Source of the DNA: an uncultured Desulfobacterales bacterium
Lineage (GTDB): Bacteria; Desulfobacterota; Dissulfuribacteria; Dissulfuribacterales; QOAL01
NCBI GenBank assembly: GCA_964573615.1
Contig: CAZNKD010000008.1
Location: 12,026 to 76,025 of the forward strand
Reading direction: 5' to 3'
DNA: 64,000 bases
The position numbers and the translations under genes were made by a program. Below are positions 49,279-57,745 of this stretch, piece after piece. Each line of letters opens with the position of its first letter. Position 1 is the stretch's first letter. Under the pieces are notes generated by a model. It saw only the letters and a list, made by a program, of their open reading frames with translations. It had not been told where the DNA came from and did no database searches.

Positions 49279-50203
49279 CAGTCTCGTAAGGGCGGCTGCC
49301 GATCTCTTCGAGGCCCATACAGCAGCGCTCTTCCTGGCAAGTGGCGGGTCAGAGCCGCTGTTGTGCCTGCGGGCCTTTCACTCCCTGAGCGATCTCGTCA
49401 TCCCGGATGCATGTCTGGAAGAGGGCCAGGGCCTTATCGGCTGGGTCTACAGGGAACAGAAACCCCTCCATGTCACCAGGTTCGACAACGATTCGGTCAC
49501 CTTGGGGCTCTATTGTCAGGATGCGGGCATAAAGGCCATGCTGGCAGTGCCGTTGCCCGAACGCTTGGGCGTTCTGGTCCTGGACAGCAGGAACAGATAT
49601 CAGTTTCCAGACAAGACGAGACGAATTGCCCTGGATCTTGCCCGGCTCGCCTGCGATCTCATCGCTTCCAAACGCTCGGCATACCAGGCCTGGCTCTACA
49701 GACAGATTCTGGACTGGCAGCGCCGGTGGCTTGGGACATGGGCCGTGGAGGGCCTTTGCCAGCTCATGGGCATACTCGATATGGAGATATTCGTTAAGGT
49801 TCAGTCCTTTGCAGGCGGCAGATACTACCGGATGAAGGAGGCGATCGACCGTCATGGGGCCGTGCTCAGGGAGCCGCTCAGGAGGTTTGGCGGCAAGGTC
49901 TCTGTGGAGAAGGGGCTTGCAGGTTGGATATTGCGCCATGAAAGAGAGATCCTCCTGGACAGGTTTGGGCGCCAAAGGCTTGTGAGCCATCTGGTGGAGC
50001 CGGATGATGGCCTTGACAAAGGGAGCGTGGTGCTCGGGTTGTATATGGACAAGAAGGGCCATGGTGATAGGAATGTGGTGGGTATCTCAGGGCCTGAGGC
50101 CGTGATATTCAGGGGAGAGACAGACATAACCTTGTGGCCCAGGGATATGCCAGCTATCATCAGGCATCAGCTTGAGCTCATGGGTTATGGTGCAGGAGAA
50201 TAG
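49238..50203 (+). CDS. GAF-domain protein, no output domain recognised
   Basis: GQGLIGWV, AMLAVPL, GVLVLDS GAF pattern plus a second degenerate KGLAGWI; start uncertain (overlaps mtnA end). Confidence 0.7.
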   Translation: MMLPSDRSFAQGLDSLVRAAADLFEAHTAALFLASGGSEPLLCLRAFHSLSDLVIPDACLEEGQGLIGWVYREQKPLHVTRFDNDSVTLGLYCQDAGIKAMLAVPLPERLGVLVLDSRNRYQFPDKTRRIALDLARLACDLIASKRSAYQAWLYRQILDWQRRWLGTWAVEGLCQLMGILDMEIFVKVQSFAGGRYYRMKEAIDRHGAVLREPLRRFGGKVSVEKGLAGWILRHEREILLDRFGRQRLVSHLVEPDDGLDKGSVVLGLYMDKKGHGDRNVVGISGPEAVIFRGETDITLWPRDMPAIIRHQLELMGYGAGE

Positions 50204-50206
50204 ACC

Positions 50207-51232
50207 TTGGTGTTCGGTCTCATAAGAAAAAAGATCCGCCAGGACCTTGCAATGGATCTTGGTACGGCAAATACCCTCGTCTATCTCCAGGGAGAGGGGA
50301 TCGTCCTCGACGAGGCCACTGTAATCGCCTTCGACGAGTATGGCGAAGTGGTGAGGTTTGGGGCCAGGGCAAAGGAGTTCCTGGGCAAGAATCCCCCTGA
50401 GCTAAAGATCCTGAGGCCCATGAAAGATGGTGTAATAGAGGATTTCCAGGCAGTCACAGAGTTTATCAAGAGCTGTCTTGCCTCTGCACGCAGGGGGCGC
50501 ACCCTGGTATCTCCCAGGGTCGTGGTCTGTGTCCCCTCACAGATAACCCAGATAGAGAAGAAGGCGGTCCTGGATGCCGTCAGAGGGGCGGGCTTTGAAA
50601 AGGTCTATCTCCTCGACGAGGTGATGGCTGCTGCTGCCGGGTGCGGAGTGGATCTGTTTGGAAGCCGTCCTGCCATGGTGGTGGACATAGGTGGAGGGAC
50701 CACGGAGGTGGCCGTTATCTCAGAGCTTGCATATCTCTACTGCGATTCCAAGAGGGTTGCAGGCACCGAGCTCGATGAGGCCATAGAGGCATGGCTCAAA
50801 GATGAATATGGCCTCTGGGTCGGCCCAAACAGTGCTGAACGCCTGAAGTGGGATTTCGGTGCCGCCTCTGTCCGTGATCTGCCGGCAAGAAAGACCGAGG
50901 TTTACGGAAAGGATCTGATCACCAGACAGCCGGCTCGCTGCACAGTGGAGCTTGAAGGGCTGGTGGAGGCCATCTCTCCTGTGATCTCATCCATTTCAGA
51001 GGTCATAAGAGATGCCCTTTTCGCCCTGGACGAGCAGACAAGGCGTGCCATATCCGGCCCGGGGATATGGCTCACTGGCGGGTGCAGCCTGCTCAGGGGG
51101 CTGCCGGATTATCTAGGGCATAGGACAGGCATAACCTTCAGGGTCCCCGCCTCTCCCCTCACCACGGTAGTGGAGGGGGCAGGGCGGGCGATGGAGGATT
51201 TTGGCAGCTTCAGGCCGCTTTTTGCCAACTGA
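50207..51232 (+). CDS. MreB/Mbl-family actin-like protein (paralog)
   Basis: MDLGTANT, RPMKDGVIED, VVCVPS, VVDIGGGTTEVAVIS, LTGG. Confidence 0.88.
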   Translation: MVFGLIRKKIRQDLAMDLGTANTLVYLQGEGIVLDEATVIAFDEYGEVVRFGARAKEFLGKNPPELKILRPMKDGVIEDFQAVTEFIKSCLASARRGRTLVSPRVVVCVPSQITQIEKKAVLDAVRGAGFEKVYLLDEVMAAAAGCGVDLFGSRPAMVVDIGGGTTEVAVISELAYLYCDSKRVAGTELDEAIEAWLKDEYGLWVGPNSAERLKWDFGAASVRDLPARKTEVYGKDLITRQPARCTVELEGLVEAISPVISSISEVIRDALFALDEQTRRAISGPGIWLTGGCSLLRGLPDYLGHRTGITFRVPASPLTTVVEGAGRAMEDFGSFRPLFAN

Positions 51233-51249
51233 TCGAGGAGAAGAGAGAA

Positions 51250-52203
51250 TTGGCGCAAGAAGGGATAGATGTCTCAGTAGTCATTCCCATCTACAATGAG
51301 CGGGAGAATATAGAGGAGCTCCTTCAAAGGGTCCTCAAGGTGCTTCGATCCATGGGCAGGGGCTTCGAGGTGCTCGCTGTGGATGACGGAAGCAGCGATG
51401 GCACAACCGATCTCCTGATCCGGATAGCGAGGCGTGAGCCAGAGGTGAGGGCCATCGTATTCAGGCGCAACTTTGGCCAGAGTGCCGCCATGACCGCCGG
51501 TTTTCAGCAGGCCAGGGGGGATATAGTCGTATCCATGGATGGAGACCTTCAGAACGACCCGGACGATATCCCCAGGCTGATAGCCAAGCTGGAAGAGGGC
51601 TATGACGTAGTGAGCGGCTGGAGGAAGGAGCGCCAGGATGCCTTTCTCTCAAGGAGGCTTCCCTCCCGGATAGCCAACTGGATAATCGGGAAGGCCACAG
51701 GGGTTAGGCTCCATGATTATGGCTGCTCCCTCAAGGCCTACAGGAGCGACATCACAAGAGATCTCATACTATACGGTGAACTCCACCGGTTCATCCCTGT
51801 GCTTGCCAGCCTGAAGGGTGCCCGTTTTGCAGAGATAGTCGTGAAACACCATCCTCGTACCAGGGGAAAGAGCAAATATGGCATTGGACGCACCTTCCGG
51901 GTGATCCTTGACCTGCTCCTCATGCTCTTCTTCCAGAAGTTCGCCACCAGACCCTTGCAGCTCTTTGGCCTGACCGGGGGAGGGATGTTCTTGGCAGGCC
52001 TTTTTATTGAGCTGTATCTGACGTTTCTCAAGCTGTTCATGGGTCAGCAGATCGGCAACCGTCCGCTCCTGTTTCTTGGAATGCTCCTCATCATCACCGG
52101 TATAATGCTCCTGGGGATAGGGCTGCTGGCCGAGCTCGTTATTCGTACCTATTACGAATCCAGTGGAAAACATATATACGCCATACGGGAAATCGTGGAA
52201 TGA
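51250..52203 (+). CDS. GT2 polyprenol-phosphate glycosyltransferase (ArnC/DPM-like)
   Basis: SVVIPIYNE, VDDGSSD, RNFGQSAA, DGDLQNDP, LHRFIP, two C-terminal TM. Confidence 0.9.
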   Translation: MAQEGIDVSVVIPIYNERENIEELLQRVLKVLRSMGRGFEVLAVDDGSSDGTTDLLIRIARREPEVRAIVFRRNFGQSAAMTAGFQQARGDIVVSMDGDLQNDPDDIPRLIAKLEEGYDVVSGWRKERQDAFLSRRLPSRIANWIIGKATGVRLHDYGCSLKAYRSDITRDLILYGELHRFIPVLASLKGARFAEIVVKHHPRTRGKSKYGIGRTFRVILDLLLMLFFQKFATRPLQLFGLTGGGMFLAGLFIELYLTFLKLFMGQQIGNRPLLFLGMLLIITGIMLLGIGLLAELVIRTYYESSGKHIYAIREIVE

Positions 52204-53183
52204 GGTGGGCCAAGGGCGCTTTGAAGCTTCTGTTGCGCCTGGGCGTCAGCCTGGGCCTGCTGGCCTGGCTCCTGAGCCGCACGGATGCAGGCAGGATAGC
52301 GGAATCGTTTCTCGGGATGCCCGTATGGGCCTGGGCCTCTGCCTTTGGCCTCTATCTCTTTTCCCAGCTGCTCAGCAGCATCAGGTGGTACATCCTATCA
52401 AGGGCACTCGACTTTGCAGGAAGGTTCATCACCTATCTCAAATACTATTTCATCGGGATGTTCTTCAACCTCTTCCTGCCAACGAGCATAGGCGGGGACG
52501 TGATAAAGATCTGGTTCCTTGCAAGGAGAAGGCCGCTAAAGCTGAAGGCCAGCTACTCCATCCTGGCAGACAGGATGTTCGGTTTCTATGCCATGTTCTT
52601 GATCGCCCTTTGCGCCGTCACCCTTGAGCCAATGCTGATGCCAGCCTATTTTGCCCATCTCATAAGGGCTGCGGCCATCTCCATGACCATCGGGCTTGTG
52701 GCCTTTCCCCTGGTATCCCACAGCCTGGACAGGATGCTTAAGGCGGCAGGCATGCCCTCTCCTGCCATCCTGACATCACGATCCCTCCTCGCCTTCTGGC
52801 ACAGGCCGAGCTCCATGGCACTTGCCATAGTGCTCTCGGTGATGCTGCAGCTTGCGGGTATGAGTGCCGTGGCCATCCTGGCCCGTGGGCTTGGGATAGA
52901 TGTGGATCCCCTGTTCTATTTTGCGGCCTTCCCCCTGGTGGCAGTGATCACCGTGCTTCCCATCTCAATGAGCGGATTTGGGGTGCGAGAGGGCGGATTC
53001 GTCTTCTTCCTGGGCCTGAAAGGGGTGAGTGCCGCACCTGCCATCACCCTGAGCCTGAGCTTCTATGCGGTACAGGCCGCTGCCGCGCTGATTGGCGGGA
53101 TCGGGTATCTGGCAGGCATGCACAAGGAGGAGCTACCCTCCCCTGAAGAGCTGGCCCATGCCGATGATGGAGGCCAGGGATAG
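52200..53183 (+). CDS. Lysylphosphatidylglycerol synthase TM-region (UPF0104) flippase-like membrane protein
   Basis: RW..L, FIGMFFNLFLPTSIGGDV, ADR, PISMSGFGVRE. Confidence 0.82.
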   Translation: MRWAKGALKLLLRLGVSLGLLAWLLSRTDAGRIAESFLGMPVWAWASAFGLYLFSQLLSSIRWYILSRALDFAGRFITYLKYYFIGMFFNLFLPTSIGGDVIKIWFLARRRPLKLKASYSILADRMFGFYAMFLIALCAVTLEPMLMPAYFAHLIRAAAISMTIGLVAFPLVSHSLDRMLKAAGMPSPAILTSRSLLAFWHRPSSMALAIVLSVMLQLAGMSAVAILARGLGIDVDPLFYFAAFPLVAVITVLPISMSGFGVREGGFVFFLGLKGVSAAPAITLSLSFYAVQAAAALIGGIGYLAGMHKEELPSPEELAHADDGGQG

Positions 53184-53184
53184 G

Positions 53185-54819
53185 ATGCACAGGAGCGGCC
53201 CTGAAAGAGGGCCTGAGCCTTTGGCCCTTGCCCTCTTCTTTTTGGCGGTGATATCCGTAAGGTTTCTGTTCCTGTGGCTGAGCCCCTATGAGCTCTCACC
53301 TGACGAGGCCTATTACTGGGACTGGTCCAGACGCCTGGACTGGGGCTATTACAGCAAGCCACCCATGGTGGCCTGGCTGATCGCGGCATCCACCTGGCTG
53401 CTGGGCCAGAGTGAGTTCGGGGTGCGTTTTCCAGCCATGGTCCTGTCGGACCTCACCCTTGTCCTGCTATATCTTTCCGGATCCATGCTGTGCGGCAAAA
53501 GGTGCGGATTTCTGGCCGCTCTCACACTCTTCGCCTCCATTGGGGGAGCCCTTTCCGCATATATCATGACCATCGATGCCCCGCTGCTATTTTTCTGGGC
53601 TTTGAGTCTCTGGTGCCTTATGCGGGCCCTTTCAGGCCATGGACTATGGTCTGGCCAGGGATGCGGACAGGGCGGCTCGAGATGGTGGTGGATTGCAGCA
53701 GGATGCGCCACCGGACTCGGGCTTCTCAGCAAGCAGACCATGATCGCCCTCCCCGTTGCACTCCTCCTCTATCTCCTTTTGGATTCGGAAGGGCGCAGGC
53801 TTATCAAGGGGCCCTGGCCCTGGCTCTATCTCGCCCTGGCCCTTCTTTTCCTGCTGCCGGTGTTTCTCTGGAACATGGAGCATGAATGGATAACCCTGGC
53901 CCACACTGCCCACCATTTCGAGCCGGGCAGGGCAGGCCTCGGACGCCTGAAGTCCTTTGGGGATTTCCTGGCAGGACAGCTCGGGGTCACCAACCCGGTA
54001 GTCTTTCCCCTGCTGGTCATTGCCTCAGCCCTGCTCCTGCCCATATGCGCAAGGAGGATGGCCGGGGACGGCGGCGCCAAGGGAGATGTTGGTGGCCAAA
54101 ACGGCCTGAACGGCCGGAATGGGTGGATGTGCCTCCTGGCAGCCTGTGGCCCGGCCCTGATAGCTGCAGTTTGCCTCCTTGCATTCCGGCAGAGGATAAA
54201 CGCGAACTGGCCCGCCCCGTTCTATCTGTCGTCACTGTTGCTGCTTGCCTGTATATACAGCTGCCCTGTGGCAAAGGCAGGAGACATGCTGCTCTCCTTC
54301 AGACGCAGGACCTTTCCTGCCTACAGGGCAGGTATCGGGATCGGTCTTTTCATGGTGGCCCTCGTCTATCTCATGCCCCTATGGCTTCCCCTAAGCCCCA
54401 TTGAGGGTACCAAGATGGATCCTACCCTGAGGCTCAGGGGTTGGAAGGAGCTTGCCCAGAAAGTGGACTCCGTGTTGAGAGGCCTTCCCAATCCCGAAAG
54501 GACCTTCATAGTGGCACGAAGGCGCCAGACTGTAAGTGAGCTCGCCTTCTATATGCCTGGAAGGCCTCATGTGTACCGGAGTCCCGGCAGGGCTGGCAGG
54601 ATTTCAAGCCAGTACGAGCTATGGCCCGGCCCCGAACAGGGCAGAAGCCACTGGGATGCCCTCATAGTCGTATCAAAGGCGAAGGCTCTGCCCCAGGGCC
54701 TTGTGCGATCGTTCAAGAGGATCGAGCCCCTGGGGGAGATCACCATCGATCTTGGCGGTCTTTCAAGGAGCTATCGTCTCTGGTATGGGGCCGAGCTAAT
54801 CAAATGGCAGGGGGGATGA
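53185..54819 (+). CDS. ArnT/PMT-like GT-C glycosyltransferase
   Basis: PDEAYYWDWSRRLDWGYYSKPPM, VRFP, DAPL, GLGLLSK; start set at ATG 53185. Confidence 0.85.
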   Translation: MHRSGPERGPEPLALALFFLAVISVRFLFLWLSPYELSPDEAYYWDWSRRLDWGYYSKPPMVAWLIAASTWLLGQSEFGVRFPAMVLSDLTLVLLYLSGSMLCGKRCGFLAALTLFASIGGALSAYIMTIDAPLLFFWALSLWCLMRALSGHGLWSGQGCGQGGSRWWWIAAGCATGLGLLSKQTMIALPVALLLYLLLDSEGRRLIKGPWPWLYLALALLFLLPVFLWNMEHEWITLAHTAHHFEPGRAGLGRLKSFGDFLAGQLGVTNPVVFPLLVIASALLLPICARRMAGDGGAKGDVGGQNGLNGRNGWMCLLAACGPALIAAVCLLAFRQRINANWPAPFYLSSLLLLACIYSCPVAKAGDMLLSFRRRTFPAYRAGIGIGLFMVALVYLMPLWLPLSPIEGTKMDPTLRLRGWKELAQKVDSVLRGLPNPERTFIVARRRQTVSELAFYMPGRPHVYRSPGRAGRISSQYELWPGPEQGRSHWDALIVVSKAKALPQGLVRSFKRIEPLGEITIDLGGLSRSYRLWYGAELIKWQGG

Positions 54820-55427
54820 GCCTTTTGGAGATCTTTCACTGGATATGCTCCAAGGACAGGGCCCTTTTCATCGCGCTAAACGGGGCCAGAGATCCGTTTC
54901 TGGACCGGCTCATGCTCTTTTTCTCCTATCCTCCCGCCTGGTTCTGGCTCATCCTGGCGGCAGTTGCAGCCTGGAGGCTCTACAAGGGCAGCAAAAGGGA
55001 GCGGTTCGTCATCTGCTGCGCCATACTTGTGTTGCTCGTGAGCGATCTCTTGTGCAACAGGGTCTTGAAGCCCCTGTTCATGCGGCCCCGCCCCTTTGAC
55101 GATCTGGTGGGGATTTGGGTCTACAAGGGGGGCAGATTCATGCTCACCACACCGGAGTTCGTGCAGAGGGTACGAGATACCATGTCGCTGCCATCTGCCC
55201 ATGCCATGAACAACTGGTCTGTTGCCATCTTCATGTTCTGCCAGAACAGACGGATAGGTTTGGCCTTCATGGCCGTTGCCCTCATTGTATCCTACTCGAG
55301 GATCTATCTGGGTGTGCACTATCCTTTGGATGTGGCTGCTGGGGCCTTGCTGGGGGCGCTGCTCGGTGCCCTTGCAGCAAGGCTTTCGGATGAGGCCTGG
55401 AAAAGGCTTGGGTCACGAAGCGGATAG
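54816..55427 (+). CDS. PAP2-family phosphatase
   Basis: K..F.RPRP, LPSAH, SRIYLGVHYPLD; start set at ATG 54816. Confidence 0.9.
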   Translation: MSLLEIFHWICSKDRALFIALNGARDPFLDRLMLFFSYPPAWFWLILAAVAAWRLYKGSKRERFVICCAILVLLVSDLLCNRVLKPLFMRPRPFDDLVGIWVYKGGRFMLTTPEFVQRVRDTMSLPSAHAMNNWSVAIFMFCQNRRIGLAFMAVALIVSYSRIYLGVHYPLDVAAGALLGALLGALAARLSDEAWKRLGSRSG

Positions 55428-56255
55428 GATGAGCCTGACCGGCTCATCTTTGGCGAGTTCGAGCCGCTTTTTTGCACTATCTCCATTGATGCATATCTCT
55501 ATGTCCCCGAAGCTGTTCACTATGGCAAGAGGGGAGCCCTTCGGCACATCGCTGAAGGTGCGGACTATTGGCAGCACCATGCCCCTTGCCACTGCCCGGA
55601 CCCTGGAGGGGAAATCCTCTCCGAAACAGGTGGATGCAAGGGATGCCGGGATGTCGGTAGCCCCGTTTCCAAACCTGTCGAACCATACGATACTGCCATG
55701 TATCCCGTCCCTGGAACAGTTGACAGGTGCCCTTTCCAGCATGGTGATCCCTTCTGTTTCAGGGCCGAGCTCTTTCAGGTCGGTCCCCTTTGCAAGATGC
55801 GCGGCTGCTGGTGCAAATATGTCCCTTCCGTGAAAGGTTGCGCTCATCTTTCCGCTTCGAATAAATCTTTCATCGGTTATCTGCCTGATTTCCAGGAATT
55901 CCTCCCTCAGAAATGAGATGAGGCCGTTGTCCGGGGCAATGAACAGGGCATCTTGGGCCCTGGCTGCAAGGGCCGCCCTTGGGCCTCCCACACCCGGATC
56001 CACCACAGACAGAAATATGGTGCCATCCGGAAAATCCCGCCATGTGCGGGATAGGATATAGGCAGCAGCCTCTATATCATGGGGCGGGATCTCATGGGTG
56101 AGATCGATCACCTTGGCCTCCGGGCAGATGGAGTGGATCACCCCCTTGACTATACCTACATAGGGGTCATGGAGTCCGAAATCGGAGAGAAATACGATTA
56201 ATGGATGATCAGAAATAGGATACGGGTTCAACGGGCACCACCCCGTCATCTTCAT
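55413..56255 (-). CDS. SAM hydroxide adenosyltransferase / chlorinase-fluorinase family (DUF62)
   Basis: LSDFG..DPYVG, DLTHEI, VVDPGVG, PDNG, TFHGRDIFAP, DRFGN; start uncertain. Confidence 0.9.
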   Translation of the reverse strand: MKMTGWCPLNPYPISDHPLIVFLSDFGLHDPYVGIVKGVIHSICPEAKVIDLTHEIPPHDIEAAAYILSRTWRDFPDGTIFLSVVDPGVGGPRAALAARAQDALFIAPDNGLISFLREEFLEIRQITDERFIRSGKMSATFHGRDIFAPAAAHLAKGTDLKELGPETEGITMLERAPVNCSRDGIHGSIVWFDRFGNGATDIPASLASTCFGEDFPSRVRAVARGMVLPIVRTFSDVPKGSPLAIVNSFGDIEICINGDSAKKRLELAKDEPVRLILSAS

Positions 56256-57084
56256 ACTGGTCTATGAGCTCCCTCCACCAGGTGGGAAGGGCGAAGGCCG
56301 CACGGTGACACTCCCTGTTGTAGTATCTGCCTGAAAAGTCCGATCGCGGCTCTGAAATGCTTGCCCCATCCTTGGTGGCTGCCACAAAGGCTATTTCGCC
56401 TCCATAGGTGGGCATGGGGGCCTGATAGACCTCCACATGGGGCAGTACGTCCTGGAACCTTGCCATCACAAAGGGCATCACCTTGGGCATGGTATTGGGA
56501 AGGCCCGACTGTCTGATAATTGTGCCCGTGTCTGTCAGGATGGCGGCAAGGTCTTCATGAAAGGGTGGCTCGAACAGCACGATTGCAGGCCCTATGGGAT
56601 CGGTGGAGTCCAGGATGATGAGATCGAATCTCTCCCCATCTTCACGGGCCCTCTTCACATAGTCGGCACCATCGCCGATGATCAGCTCGACACGGTCATC
56701 CTTCCAGTCGCCGCAGATCTCCGGCAGGTATTTCCGGCATGCTGCGAGTACGGCCTCGTCCAGTTCCACCTGGACGATCCTCTTGATCTGCTGGTGCTTC
56801 TGCAGCTCCCGCAGGATGCCTCCGTCTGCACCTCCGATTATGAGGGCGGACTCCACCGATGTGGTACGCGCCATGACGGGCACGTGTACCATCATCTCAT
56901 GGTAGATGAATTCGTCGTTGAATGTGACCTGAACTATACCGTCAAGGATGAGACCACGGCCCCACTGCTCGTTGTCGAAGACCACCAGTTTTTGAAAGGG
57001 GGTGCGCTCCTCATAAAGGAGCTCGATCTCGTATCCATGAGTGAAGCCTGGTCCGATCCTCTCGGACCACCAGAAGCGAGTCAA
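56209..57084 (-). CDS. speE: Polyamine aminopropyltransferase (spermidine synthase family)
   Basis: LILDGIVQ, DEFIYHEMMVH, IGGADGGILRE, VELD, DSTDPIGP. Confidence 0.92.
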   Translation of the reverse strand: MTRFWWSERIGPGFTHGYEIELLYEERTPFQKLVVFDNEQWGRGLILDGIVQVTFNDEFIYHEMMVHVPVMARTTSVESALIIGGADGGILRELQKHQQIKRIVQVELDEAVLAACRKYLPEICGDWKDDRVELIIGDGADYVKRAREDGERFDLIILDSTDPIGPAIVLFEPPFHEDLAAILTDTGTIIRQSGLPNTMPKVMPFVMARFQDVLPHVEVYQAPMPTYGGEIAFVAATKDGASISEPRSDFSGRYYNRECHRAAFALPTWWRELIDQYEDDGVVPVEPVSYF

Positions 57085-57536
57085 GTGTCCTCCATCTGAA
57101 GCAGTTTGCCCCGGGTGAGCTCGATCACATTGCAGAGCCCGGGTTTGAGCCGTTCCTTCATGCGCTCAAGGACCTGATAGGCGGCAGAGTGGTCCTTGGC
57201 GAATATGTCTATGGCCGCAAAGGCCTTCTCAGGCCATGTATGTATGAGGATATGGGCCCGGTCGCTGGATGCGGTGCCGGATACCCCGTATGGATTGAAC
57301 TGGTATACATGGACGTCAGGCCTGGTCTCTCGGCCAAGGCCGTCCATCAATGTCCCAGCCCTGTCCAGGATCTTGCCTATGTGGTTGGCATCGGCCAGAG
57401 ATGCAAATGGAGACTTCCACATCTCCACCAGGAGGTGAGTGCTCAAGCCGGAGCGCAGGGCCCGGTTCATCACCTGGGAAGTGGATGCCTGTCTCTCCTG
57501 CTGCTCTGCCCTGAGAGCCGGAGTCGCTGTTGCCAT
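57081..57536 (-). CDS. SAM decarboxylase (SpeD/SpeH)-like protein lacking catalytic residues
   Basis: HLLVEMW, F.P.GVSG, H..IHTWPE, AAIDIF match the fold; ESH is RAH and the DxxTCG Cys is absent. Confidence 0.8.
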   Translation of the reverse strand: MATATPALRAEQQERQASTSQVMNRALRSGLSTHLLVEMWKSPFASLADANHIGKILDRAGTLMDGLGRETRPDVHVYQFNPYGVSGTASSDRAHILIHTWPEKAFAAIDIFAKDHSAAYQVLERMKERLKPGLCNVIELTRGKLLQMEDT

Positions 57537-57667
57537 AAGCAGCCCTCCTGTCCATGCCGGGTACGCACCTGTCTCCGGCGGAATTTTCCCTTGAAAAATA
57601 AGTGCCTCGGTATCGAAACAGCGCAGAATGGAAACATTTTATTGATCAAATGTCAATAACACAAGAC

Positions 57668-57703
57668 AAAAAAAGAGGGCCCTCCTGATTGGAAGGCCCC
57701 CTT
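57668..57703 (-). terminator. Intrinsic terminator after flgE
   Basis: GC-rich stem 57675-57700 with a G.U pair on the minus strand, then U7. Confidence 0.7.
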
Positions 57704-57745
57704 TCCATCCATGCCTGATCTCCTTAATGGCTGCTGAGTGGCCCC

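What the first reader, a model, noticed from the sequence alone, without database searches (positions are those of the whole stretch)
57081..57536. Catalytically dead SAM decarboxylase homolog translationally coupled to speE (possible bacterial prozyme)
Seen in sequence: GVSGTASSDRAHILIHTWPE...AAIDIFAKD aligns with the canonical GVSGxxxxSESHxxIHTxPE...xxDVxTCG. The Glu-Ser self-cleavage site that makes the pyruvoyl cofactor is Arg-Ala, and the catalytic Cys is missing, yet the frame is intact with a good RBS and overlaps the speE start by 4 nt. SpeE keeps the Asp of GGxDG associated with dcSAM use. Established: trypanosomatids use an inactive AdoMetDC paralog (prozyme) as an allosteric activator. 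Inference: a regulatory or scaffold pseudoenzyme, or a polyamine/SAM-binding sensor, with dcSAM supplied by another gene.
Basis: partly seen in the sequence, partly recalled or inferred. Interest (0 to 1): 0.68.

Follow-up and report, generated by a model that had tools for sequence, protein, structure and literature searches.

The report
Dead SAM decarboxylase coupled to speE
This gene encodes a conserved, catalytically dead copy of S-adenosylmethionine decarboxylase made from the same mRNA as spermidine synthase in heat-loving sulfate-reducer relatives; databases name it as the active enzyme, and it may be a free-standing bacterial version of the "dead half" that eukaryotic enzymes and trypanosome prozyme rely on.

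Summary
ORF 57081-57536 (-) is a class 1b AdoMetDC homolog (Pfam E=9.6e-22). Arg93-Ala94 replace the Glu-Ser self-cleavage site and Lys114-Asp115 replace the catalytic Cys-Gly. It has its own AGGAGG RBS, and a TTGA stop/start overlap joins it to a canonical speE.

It is not a decaying gene. It belongs to a monophyletic family in 38 Thermodesulfobacteriota species genomes, including cultured Thermodesulfatator indicus. A sister clade of 43 clusters occurs in Thermodesulfobacterium and Caldimicrobium. The serine is missing in 37/38 species and the cysteine in all. dN/dS is 0-0.1, the same as for SpeE.

The loss is selective. Across 72 clusters E62, S63, C83 and G84 are gone, while H7, E11, F49, S55, H68, E72 and D79 stay 100% invariant. 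The degraded second domain of known bacterial SpeD1-SpeD2 fusions, and (from memory) the C-terminal half of eukaryotic AdoMetDC, show the same pattern.

Best reading (about 0.45): a non-catalytic half-enzyme that pairs with an active AdoMetDC-fold protomer encoded elsewhere, which is prozyme-like. Main rival: a SpeE-associated subunit like the dead N-domain of animal spermine synthase.

I could not show an active paralog in the same genomes. I found no description of this family in the library searched. I rate it a new variant of a known kind.

The parts
57670..57706 (-). Intrinsic terminator after flgE. It separates the flagellar operon from the dSpeH-speE-DUF62 unit.
   Evidence: 16-bp G+C-rich stem followed by a T-run; sequence read.
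57544..57549 (-). Shine-Dalgarno AGGAGG, 7 nt upstream of the ATG of the dead AdoMetDC homolog.
   Evidence: Read directly from the sequence.
57081..57536 (-). dSpeH: a 151-aa class 1b AdoMetDC-fold protein that does not self-process and is non-catalytic. It has a roughly 30-aa N-terminal extension that canonical SpeH lacks.
   Evidence: Pfam PF02675 E=9.6e-22; below the TIGR03330 cut-off; aligned to 1TLU/1TMI; AF2 core pLDDT above 90; Foldseek top hits are T. maritima and Aquifex AdoMetDC.
57255..57260 (-). Codons CGG GCC = Arg93-Ala94, at the position of the Glu-Ser self-cleavage site that gives the pyruvoyl cofactor.
   Evidence: Family-wide this position is A/I/L/V/M/T.
57195..57197 (-). 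Codon AAG = Lys114, at the position of the catalytic proton-donor Cys (T. maritima C83).
   Evidence: It is R/K/H/G/Q in clade A, E/D in clade B, and Cys in 118/118 canonical clusters.
57081..57093 (-). Translational coupling signal GGAGGACACTTGA. It holds the SD GGAGG for speE inside codons Met148-Asp150, and the TTG start of speE overlapping the TGA stop.
   Evidence: Conserved in 37 related genomes. This explains the invariant C-terminal E-[DE]-T.
56209..57084 (-). speE: a canonical polyamine aminopropyltransferase (291 aa, TTG start) with intact dcSAM-binding and catalytic motifs.
   Evidence: Pfam Spermine_synth E=9e-49; NCBIfam PRK00811 275 bits, above the 260 cut-off; aligned to 3O4F and 1IY9.
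55413..56255 (-). DUF62 SAM hydroxide adenosyltransferase, an (R)-S-adenosylmethionine hydrolase homolog. It is the third gene of the operon and overlaps the speE 3' end. A gene caller on an identical contig starts it 24 nt further in.
   Evidence: Pfam SAM_HAT_N/C E=2e-55 and NCBIfam (R)-SAM hydrolase models below cut-off; gene call in L001; present in 26/38 related loci.

Best explanation
The ORF encodes a free-standing, non-processing, catalytically dead class 1b AdoMetDC 'half-enzyme'. I put the pseudoenzyme status at about 0.9.

What the sequence shows:
- It lacks the serine that becomes the pyruvoyl cofactor, the preceding Glu, and the Cys-Gly proton donor.
- It keeps every other pocket residue invariant: H34, E38, F80, S86, H99, E103 and D110, which correspond to T. 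maritima H7, E11, F49, S55, H68, E72 and D79.
- It is translated from the same mRNA as spermidine synthase through a conserved stop/start overlap.

What I infer:
- It forms the usual beta-sheet-to-beta-sheet sandwich with an active AdoMetDC-fold protomer encoded elsewhere in the genome, not with itself.
- It donates its intact adenosyl-binding and processing half-site to the partner's pyruvoyl site.
- This gives an asymmetric, single-site enzyme, like the C-terminal half of eukaryotic class 2 AdoMetDC or the degraded SpeD2 domain of Victivallis-type fusions.
- dcSAM production would then be tied to the amount of SpeE made. In effect this is a bacterial, unfused, prozyme-like subunit.
For: Identity and loss of catalysis:
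- AdoMetDC fold and family membership.
- Below the equivalog cut-off for the active enzyme.
- Ala sits at the position whose S63A mutation gives the deposited non-processing mutant 1TMI.
- The serine is absent in 37/38 species genomes and replaced by bulky I/L/V/M in 17. The cysteine is absent in all.
- The sister clade of 43 clusters is also mostly Ala, with the next His often N/Q/Y.
- No other conserved Ser/Thr/Cys could serve instead.

The gene is functional:
- dN/dS is 0-0.1 for eight close pairs, equal to SpeE.

Selective pattern of loss:
- In 72 dead-clade clusters E62, S63, C83 and G84 are lost, while H7, E11, F49, P51, G53, S55, H68-E72 and D79 are 100% kept. All of these are 100% kept in 118 canonical clusters.
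- The Ser-less C-terminal domain of fusion P0030 shows the same pattern (F-P-G-S and HTWPE kept, PRAH, no Cys).
- The family profile scores the SpeD2 domain above SpeD1 in all seven tandem fusions.

Literature:
- Such a fusion with a degraded second domain is an experimentally active AdoMetDC, and similar fusions occur in Desulfobacterales (PMC10407285).
- Two bacterial half-enzymes make the sandwich that a eukaryotic monomer contains (PMC5201418).
- T. thermophilum, which has a sister-clade member (WP_022855227) next to APT01, has a second AdoMetDC-fold gene elsewhere (WP_022854912).
- APT01 made spermidine alone in E. coli, so the partner SpeE does not need this protein.
Against: - No active AdoMetDC was shown in any genome that carries the family. 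None lies in the 64-kb window or within 10 kb of the gene in 38 genomes. Attempts to link canonical genes to the same assemblies failed.
- The gene is coupled to speE, not to an active speH. A heterodimer partner would more naturally be co-located.
- T. thermophilum's second homolog is listed by its authors as a putative arginine decarboxylase, not an AdoMetDC.
- Retention of H7/E11 is not required by a pure trans-donation model.
- The assignment of residues to the two halves rests on my memory of the human and T. maritima structures, not on a tool result.
- No expression data exist.
Confidence: 0.45

Rival explanations
1. The protein is a non-catalytic subunit of spermidine synthase. It would be the same arrangement as the dead AdoMetDC-like N-terminal domain of animal spermine synthase, but as a separate polypeptide. 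It would bind SpeE and organise, stabilise (these are vent thermophiles) or regulate it.
For: - speE follows with a conserved SD plus TTGA overlap in 37/38 genomes and in the sister clade.
- After bacterial AdoMetDCs, the next-best Foldseek hits are the human spermine synthase N-domain (3C6K, E=3e-6).
- The animal enzyme derives from a bacterial AdoMetDC-aminopropyltransferase fusion. Its N-domain lost activity but is needed for dimerisation and activity (PMC12803844).
- Active AdoMetDC-APT fusions are among the relatives, for example P0036, P0045 and P0055.
Against: - The T. thermophilum APT01 orthologue of the partner SpeE made spermidine on its own in E. coli.
- speH-speE adjacency is ancestral in canonical operons, so coupling alone does not show a complex.
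- A purely structural role does not explain 100% retention of the AdoMetDC pocket residues. According to PMC12803844, the animal N-domain resembles AdoMetDC in structure but not in sequence.
- L041 keeps the gene without speE.
Confidence: 0.25
2. The protein is a homodimeric ligand-binding protein. The intact adenosyl pocket would bind SAM, dcSAM or MTA without turnover. It would act as a sensor, buffer or hand-over protein for the labile sulfonium donor, possibly together with the DUF62 (R)-SAM hydrolase.
For: - All pocket residues other than the cofactor and the proton donor are invariant.
- A SAM-repair-type hydrolase is the third gene in 26/38 loci.
- A preprint whose abstract was retrieved reports heat-driven sulfonium epimerisation and (R)-SAM hydrolases in thermophilic archaea (bioRxiv 10.1101/2025.08.29.672840).
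Against: - In an uncleaved chain the loop that would carry the pyruvoyl group runs through the pocket, as in proenzyme structures, so substrate-like binding is doubtful. This is inference.
- There is no precedent.
- DUF62 is absent from the Thermodesulfatator subclade and from the sister clade.
Confidence: 0.15
3. The protein is still a decarboxylase. It would make dcSAM (or agmatine/putrescine) by an unconventional route, and these lineages would have no other AdoMetDC.
For: - SpeE is fully canonical and needs dcSAM.
- No second AdoMetDC was found in any sequence I could read.
- A few members carry Ser at the site: T. autotrophicus, T. commune group and some Caldimicrobium.
Against: - No residue that could form a pyruvoyl group is conserved.
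- Ser alternates with Ala between >90%-identical sister species through a single base change (TCT against GCC).
- I/L/M/V occupy the site in 17 species.
- Only 20-64 kb per genome was searched.
Confidence: 0.04
4. The gene is an evolutionary relic. The reading frame would be kept only because its translation delivers ribosomes to the weak TTG start of speE.
For: - The SD and the start of speE lie inside the ORF and are conserved at the nucleotide level.
- TTG is a weak start codon (general knowledge).
Against: - dN/dS is 0-0.1 along the whole core with the last six codons excluded.
- Twelve pocket residues are invariant over 72 clusters.
- The fold is predicted with confidence.
- P0029 and L041 keep the gene without speE.
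Confidence: 0.03

Closest known systems
Degraded SpeD2 domain of bacterial SpeD1-SpeD2 fusions (Victivallis vadensis WP_116885763; Desulfobacter latus WP_178365596; PMC10407285)
   Same: Both are class 1b AdoMetDC-fold modules that cannot self-cleave and sit upstream of speE. Such fusions also occur in Thermodesulfobacteriota. The pattern of lost residues (Ser, Cys) and kept residues (F-P-G-S, HTWPE, D) is identical in the example P0030.
   Different: Here the dead module is a separate 151-aa protein. No active module is fused to it or adjacent. It forms its own monophyletic clade rather than grouping with SpeD2 domains in my NJ tree.
Trypanosomatid AdoMetDC prozyme (PDB 5TVM; PMC5201418)
   Same: Both are catalytically dead AdoMetDC paralogs kept under selection. 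The proposed role is as a non-catalytic partner of an active enzyme.
   Different: Prozyme is a roughly 270-300-aa class 2 (already duplicated and fused) eukaryotic protein that pairs edge-to-edge with a class 2 enzyme and relieves autoinhibition. This is a 151-aa class 1b half-enzyme that arose independently. Its partner is unknown, and its gene is coupled to speE. The Foldseek match is weak (E=1e-4, TM 0.25-0.42).
N-terminal domain of animal spermine synthase (PDB 3C6K/3C6M; PMC12803844)
   Same: Both are AdoMetDC-like folds without catalytic residues, associated with an aminopropyltransferase.
   Different: The animal domain is covalently fused, resembles AdoMetDC in structure but not sequence (PMC12803844), and is required for activity. 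Here the protein is separate, the pocket residues are invariant, and the orthologous SpeE of T. thermophilum works alone in E. coli.
T. maritima AdoMetDC S63A non-processing mutant (PDB 1TMI)
   Same: This is the best structural match (E=5e-11, TM 0.76 on the target). It has the same Ser-to-Ala change at the cleavage site.
   Different: 1TMI is an engineered mutant that keeps Glu62 and Cys83. The natural family has also lost these and has gained a roughly 30-aa N-terminal extension.
Neofunctionalised SpeD homologs SpeDA/SpeDC (pyruvoyl arginine/ornithine decarboxylases; PMC10407285)
   Same: Both are AdoMetDC-fold proteins that are not AdoMetDC. Several relatives that keep the serine also lack the Cys, for example L044/L046 and the SpeD2 domains. 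Whether those particular proteins are arginine/ornithine decarboxylases was not tested.
   Different: SpeDA and SpeDC keep the pyruvoyl serine and are active enzymes. This family does not keep it.

Membership tests
Pfam PF02675 AdoMet_dc / class 1b AdoMetDC fold | Sequence match above the gathering threshold over the whole domain. | tested here: met
   77.8 bits against a cut-off of 25, model positions 1-107/107.
Pfam PF02675 AdoMet_dc / class 1b AdoMetDC fold | Alpha-beta half-sandwich fold like T. maritima AdoMetDC. | tested here: met
   AF2 core pLDDT above 90. Foldseek hits 1TMI, 1VR7, 2III and 1TLU at E=5e-11 to 2e-10 with TM 0.75-0.78 on the target.
Functional S-adenosylmethionine decarboxylase (EC 4.1.1.50, NCBIfam TIGR03330 equivalog) | Score at or above the equivalog cut-off. 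| tested here: not met
   67.5 bits against 75.65.
Functional S-adenosylmethionine decarboxylase (EC 4.1.1.50, NCBIfam TIGR03330 equivalog) | Internal Glu-Ser site whose Ser becomes the pyruvoyl cofactor. | tested here: not met
   Arg93-Ala94 here. The Ser position is non-Ser in 29/30 clade A clusters and 37/42 clade B clusters (E62 is kept in only 2 of 30 clade A clusters), against 118/118 Glu-Ser in canonical clusters.
Functional S-adenosylmethionine decarboxylase (EC 4.1.1.50, NCBIfam TIGR03330 equivalog) | Catalytic Cys (T. maritima C83) as proton donor. | tested here: not met
   Lys114 here. There is no Cys in any of 72 family clusters, against Cys in 118/118 canonical clusters.
Functional S-adenosylmethionine decarboxylase (EC 4.1.1.50, NCBIfam TIGR03330 equivalog) | Autocatalytic cleavage into alpha and beta chains, and CO2 release from SAM. 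| not testable with these tools
   Needs expression, SDS-PAGE or mass spectrometry, and an assay.
Prozyme-type regulatory pseudoenzyme of AdoMetDC | Catalytically dead AdoMetDC paralog under purifying selection. | tested here: met
Prozyme-type regulatory pseudoenzyme of AdoMetDC | An active AdoMetDC paralog encoded in the same genome. | tested here: inconclusive
   None in the window or within 10 kb in 38 genomes. Assembly matching failed. The only lead is T. thermophilum's second homolog WP_022854912.
Prozyme-type regulatory pseudoenzyme of AdoMetDC | Heteromer with the active enzyme, and activation of it. | not testable with these tools
   No multimer prediction or biochemistry was available.
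Prozyme-type regulatory pseudoenzyme of AdoMetDC | Class 2 (fused two-half) architecture, orthologous to trypanosomatid prozyme. | tested here: not met
   A single 151-aa class 1b domain. The match to 5TVM is weak.
SpeD1-degraded SpeD2 fusion AdoMetDC (Victivallis type) | Dead class 1b module with the Ser/Cys lost and the F-P-G-S / HTWPE half-site kept. | tested here: met
SpeD1-degraded SpeD2 fusion AdoMetDC (Victivallis type) | Covalent fusion to an active SpeD1 module. | tested here: not met
   All 70 family clusters are 112-180 aa with a single domain. There is no second domain nearby.
Animal-type spermine synthase N-terminal domain | AdoMetDC-like fold fused N-terminally to the aminopropyltransferase. 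| tested here: not met
   The fold similarity is present. The protein is a separate ORF in a different frame with a 4-nt overlap.
Animal-type spermine synthase N-terminal domain | Required for dimerisation and activity of the aminopropyltransferase. | not testable with these tools
   Indirect evidence is against it: T. thermophilum APT01 is active alone in E. coli.

The most novel reading that the evidence does not exclude
These Thermodesulfobacteriota have no pyruvoyl AdoMetDC at all. The Ser-less protein, alone or with SpeE and the DUF62 hydrolase, would then supply or bypass dcSAM by chemistry not yet described. A less extreme but still novel reading is my best explanation: a free-standing bacterial 'prozyme' that represents the unfused intermediate on the road to the eukaryotic two-half enzyme.
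Probability: 0.05. Interest if true: 0.95.

Novelty: new variant of a known kind. Interest (0 to 1): 0.62.

Why it matters
- **Annotation.** RefSeq and UniProt name these proteins 'adenosylmethionine decarboxylase (proenzyme)', for example T. indicus WP_013907285/F8A889. Pathway reconstructions for a whole group of vent thermophiles therefore credit dcSAM synthesis to a protein that cannot make the cofactor. A published table for T. thermophilum lists its other AdoMetDC-fold gene as the putative arginine decarboxylase. I infer this treats the speE-adjacent gene as the AdoMetDC; it deserves re-examination.
- **Evolution.** Current models derive the eukaryotic class 2 enzyme from a fusion of an active and a degraded class 1b gene. 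A conserved, unfused, selectively degraded half-enzyme in the same phylum makes the intermediate stage testable.
- **Pseudoenzyme biology.** It would be a bacterial case of a dead paralog kept as a subunit or regulator in polyamine synthesis, arising independently of trypanosomatid prozyme and of the spermine synthase N-domain.
- **Physiology.** The recurrent link with an (R)-SAM hydrolase suggests a module that manages heat-labile sulfonium donors.

Tried and rejected
- **Second AdoMetDC nearby.** A local HMM of 43 canonical SpeH sequences, run against six-frame translations of the window and 42 loci, found only the dead gene.
- **Alternative pyruvoyl precursor.** The only invariant Ser is the GVS serine, which canonical enzymes also have. 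No other Ser/Thr/Cys is conserved.
- **Recent pseudogene.** Rejected by dN/dS of 0-0.1 and by 70 clusters of intact 112-180-aa ORFs.
- **Riboswitch in the 5' leader.** Rfam gave only sub-threshold noise.
- **Expression data.** No RNA runs exist for the window or for T. autotrophicus. A T. indicus locus was not accepted by the tool.
- **Finding an active paralog in the same genomes.**
  - The canonical-profile protein search returned 7729 hits with only 120 shown and none from Thermodesulfatator, so it was uninformative.
  - Canonical genes P0245, P0249 and P0032 mapped to assemblies JAFGIF01, QMLA01 and JBPKUO01. Family members P0012 and P0005 mapped to JBPKYV01 and JBPMVF01. Nothing matched.
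  - L100 has 37% GC and is unrelated.
  - The last cluster look-up gave cyanobacterial names only.
- **Derivation from SpeD2/SpeDC domains.** The profile prefers SpeD2 domains. The NJ tree places only P0029 and P0031 as sisters, so common descent with SpeD2 is not shown.
- **Neighbouring polyamine genes.** There are none around T. autotrophicus or T. indicus.
Full report
**What is there.**
On the minus strand, an intrinsic terminator (57706..57670) ends the flgD-flgE flagellar genes. Next come an AGGAGG RBS and an ATG at 57536, which open a 151-aa ORF ending at 57081. The ORF matches Pfam AdoMet_dc over the entire model (E=9.6e-22). It falls below the NCBIfam equivalog cut-off for a genuine AdoMetDC (67.5 against 75.65 bits).

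Its TGA stop overlaps the TTG start of a 291-aa speE as TTGA. The Shine-Dalgarno sequence for speE (GGAGG) lies in the ORF's last codons.

SpeE is a standard aminopropyltransferase. It passes the PRK00811 cut-off and aligns to E. coli and B. subtilis SpeE with GGADGG, VELD, GDGADYV and DSTDPIGP intact. A DUF62 SAM hydroxide adenosyltransferase, an (R)-SAM hydrolase homolog, overlaps the speE 3' end.

Two independent vent metagenome assemblies cover the region with no indel and no variant inside the ORF. The one correction is that the speE start codon is TTG.

**The protein cannot make the pyruvoyl cofactor.**
A family profile aligns residue for residue to T. maritima AdoMetDC (1TLU, 1VR7) and to its S63A non-processing mutant (1TMI). 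The family consensus has Ala exactly at S63. In the window protein, Glu62-Ser63 are Arg93-Ala94 and Cys83-Gly84 are Lys114-Asp115.

The AlphaFold model has a confident core (pLDDT above 90 for residues 31-143). Its roughly 30-residue N-terminal extension, which canonical SpeH lacks, is low-confidence. Foldseek ranks 1TMI, 1VR7, 2III and 1TLU first. It then ranks the N-terminal domain of human spermine synthase, then plant and human AdoMetDC and the T. brucei AdoMetDC/prozyme heterodimer.

**It is a conserved family, not a decaying gene.**
- Protein search found 27 clusters at 47-72% identity, all about 150 aa.
- A scan of one genome per species found the family in 38 genomes. All are Thermodesulfobacteriota, mostly hydrothermal MAGs plus Thermodesulfatator autotrophicus.
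- A cluster look-up adds the cultured type strain T. indicus DSM 15286 (WP_013907285, F8A889). The locus was read in CP002683.
- An exhaustive profile search of 1.84 billion representatives shows a sharp gap. Three family representatives score above 217 bits. Next come P0029 (137 bits, also Ser-less) and P0031 (119 bits).
- P0031 leads to a sister clade of 43 clusters in Thermodesulfobacterium and Caldimicrobium. This clade is also upstream of speE with a 4-nt overlap.
- In a bootstrapped NJ tree the family is monophyletic (49/60), with P0029 and then P0031 as sisters.
- For eight closely related pairs, dN/dS is 0-0.084. This is indistinguishable from the adjacent SpeE (0.03-0.09). The last six codons, which carry the speE RBS, were excluded.

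**The serine is dispensable in this family.**
At the pyruvoyl position the 38 species plus the window have A (19), I (7), L (5), V (3), M (2), T (1) and S (1). The single Ser is in T. autotrophicus (codon TCT). T. indicus, which is over 90% identical, has Ala, and so do six sister MAGs whose codon is GCC.

In the sister clade 31 of 42 clusters have Ala and five have Ser. Close relatives differ from one another, and the following His is often N, Q or Y. Ser therefore flickers as a neutral Ala/Ser exchange and is not maintained as a cofactor precursor.

**The loss is surgically selective.**
Across 72 clusters of the two dead clades, and using T. maritima numbering:
- H7, E11, F49, P51, G53, S55, H68, T69, W70, P71, E72 and D79 are 100% invariant, as they are in 118 canonical clusters (H7 and T69 nearly so there: 110 and 116 of 118).
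- E62, S63, C83 and G84 are invariant in the canonical set but gone in the dead clades. H64 is partly lost.
- The Cys position is basic (R/K) in the window's clade and acidic (E/D) in the sister clade.

From established structural knowledge, which I recall from memory and did not verify with a tool, the human enzyme splits these residues between its two halves. The N-half carries E8/E11, the pyruvoyl Ser68 and Cys82. The C-half carries F223, S229, H243 and E247, which correspond to bacterial F49, S55, H68 and E72. The dead family keeps what the non-catalytic C-half contributes.

The literature held here confirms two points. Two bacterial half-enzymes form the sandwich that a eukaryotic monomer contains (PMC5201418). 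The eukaryotic C-terminal half lacks a cleavage site (PMC10407285).

**Known precedents.**
- PMC10407285 describes SpeD1-SpeD2 fusions upstream of speE. In Victivallis vadensis and Desulfobacter latus the second domain is degraded, yet the V. vadensis protein is an active AdoMetDC.
- One such fusion in my hits (P0030) has a C-terminal domain with PRAH, no Cys, and intact F-P-G-S and HTWPE. This is the same pattern as the family.
- The family profile scores the second domain above the first in all seven tandem fusions examined.
- PMC12803844 shows that animal spermine synthase derives from a bacterial AdoMetDC-aminopropyltransferase fusion. Its N-domain lost activity but is needed for dimerisation and activity.
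- I found no paper in the held library that describes a free-standing Ser-less SpeH.

**Context.**
- speE follows immediately in 37 of 38 genomes. The junction ...GGAGGA-CAC-TTGA is conserved at the nucleotide level. This also explains the invariant C-terminal E-[DE]-T.
- DUF62 is the third gene in 26 of 38 loci. The Thermodesulfatator subclade lacks it, and the sister clade has an RsmD-like methyltransferase there instead.
- One locus (L041) has the dead gene followed directly by DUF62 with no speE. P0029 stands alone.
- No second AdoMetDC-fold gene lies in the 64-kb window or within 10 kb in any of the genomes.
- Canonical operons in other vent Deltaproteobacteria look different. One is HTH-speH-pvlArgDC-speE-agmatinase-Trm112-MTAP. 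Another is speH-pvlArgDC-agmatinase without speE.

**Link to experiments.**
The sister-clade member of T. thermophilum is WP_022855227. Its accession number is adjacent to APT01 (WP_022855228, 273 aa). APT01 produced spermidine on its own in E. coli delta-speE (PMC11107197). This type of SpeE therefore does not strictly need the dead protein.

The same paper lists a second AdoMetDC-fold protein in that genome (WP_022854912, 148 aa) as the putative arginine decarboxylase. So at least one genome of the wider group has another AdoMetDC-fold gene elsewhere.

**Mechanism.**
- *Shown:* AdoMetDC fold; loss of cofactor precursor and proton donor; purifying selection; invariant remaining pocket; translational coupling to a canonical SpeE.
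- *Inferred, best reading (about 0.45):* the protein is the non-catalytic half of an asymmetric AdoMetDC. It pairs sheet-to-sheet with an active protomer encoded elsewhere and supplies the F/S/H/E half-site. In function this is a bacterial, unfused, prozyme-like subunit, and its level is set together with SpeE.
- *Rival 1 (0.25):* a SpeE-bound subunit like the spermine synthase N-domain. Coupling and the fold match favour it. APT01's autonomy and the invariant pocket weaken it.
- *Rival 2 (0.15):* a homodimeric ligand binder for SAM, dcSAM or MTA, perhaps acting with DUF62.
- *Rival 3 (0.04):* cryptic catalysis.
- *Rival 4 (0.03):* a mere translational leader.

**Unresolved.**
I could not establish whether the genomes that carry the family also encode an active AdoMetDC. 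The canonical-profile search was truncated. Assembly matching failed. This is the decisive missing fact, and it needs only an HMM search of CP002683 and two other complete genomes.

**Verdict.**
The feature is real and robust. It is a conserved pseudoenzyme that public databases annotate as the active enzyme. It is a new variant (free-standing, class 1b, speE-coupled, phylum-restricted) of a known kind, namely dead AdoMetDC modules. Interest is moderate to high for polyamine and pseudoenzyme specialists.

Noticed in passing
window 55413-56255 (-): A DUF62 SAM hydroxide adenosyltransferase, an (R)-SAM hydrolase homolog, is the third gene of the operon here and in 26/38 related loci. The Thermodesulfatator subclade lacks it. 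The sister clade has an RsmD-like methyltransferase (Cons_hypoth95) in that place. This suggests sulfonium-donor quality control linked to aminopropyl transfer in thermophiles.
   Followed up: partly
window 57081-57093 (-), and the same junction in L005-L042: The invariant C-terminal Glu-Asp/Glu-Thr of the dead protein is encoded by GGAGGACACTTGA. This is the SD and the TTG start of speE, so part of the protein's 'conservation' is a nucleotide-level constraint. A TTG start for speE is conserved in 37 genomes.
   Followed up: yes
L041:5039-6372: In one MAG the dead gene is followed directly by DUF62 with speE missing. The ACTTGA junction is kept but the SD has degraded (AGAAGA).
   Followed up: no
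L042:10174-10290, compared with P0177 / L099: Thermodesulfatator autotrophicus has Ser (TCT, motif GDSH) at the pyruvoyl position. T. indicus (over 90% identical) has Ala, as do six sister MAGs with codon GCC. Ser also appears sporadically in the sister clade (T. commune group, some Caldimicrobium). Whether these Ser-bearing members can self-process is unknown.
   Followed up: partly
P0345 = WP_022855227 (Thermodesulfobacterium thermophilum); PMC11107197 Table S2: The speE-adjacent AdoMetDC homolog of T. thermophilum belongs to the mostly Ser-less sister clade and lacks the catalytic Cys. The paper lists the genome's other AdoMetDC-fold gene (WP_022854912) as the putative arginine decarboxylase. 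The assignment of which gene makes dcSAM in this genus may need revisiting.
   Followed up: partly
window about 50000-55427 (+), and L005, L016, L017, L027: A convergent cluster recurs next to the operon in several relatives: GT2 glycosyltransferase, LPG_synthase_TM, ArnT-like PMT_2 glycosyltransferase and PAP2 phosphatase. Polyamine genes beside envelope-modification genes recall, from memory, the P. aeruginosa PA4773-PA4774/pmrAB region.
   Followed up: no
L085:282-707 (P0029): This is the closest outgroup. It is a 141-aa Ser-less, His-less (LQVIIHTWPE) AdoMetDC homolog standing alone at a contig end next to PhoX, with no speE. It ends in K-D-T like the family.
   Followed up: no
L092/L093 (P0249) and L090 (P0245): Vent Deltaproteobacteria carry canonical operons. 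One is speH-pvlArgDC-agmatinase without speE. Another is HTH/cupin-speH-pvlArgDC-speE-agmatinase-Trm112-MTAP. A genome with the first type would need speE elsewhere, which would fit a split arrangement with dSpeH-speE. No shared assembly was found.
   Followed up: partly
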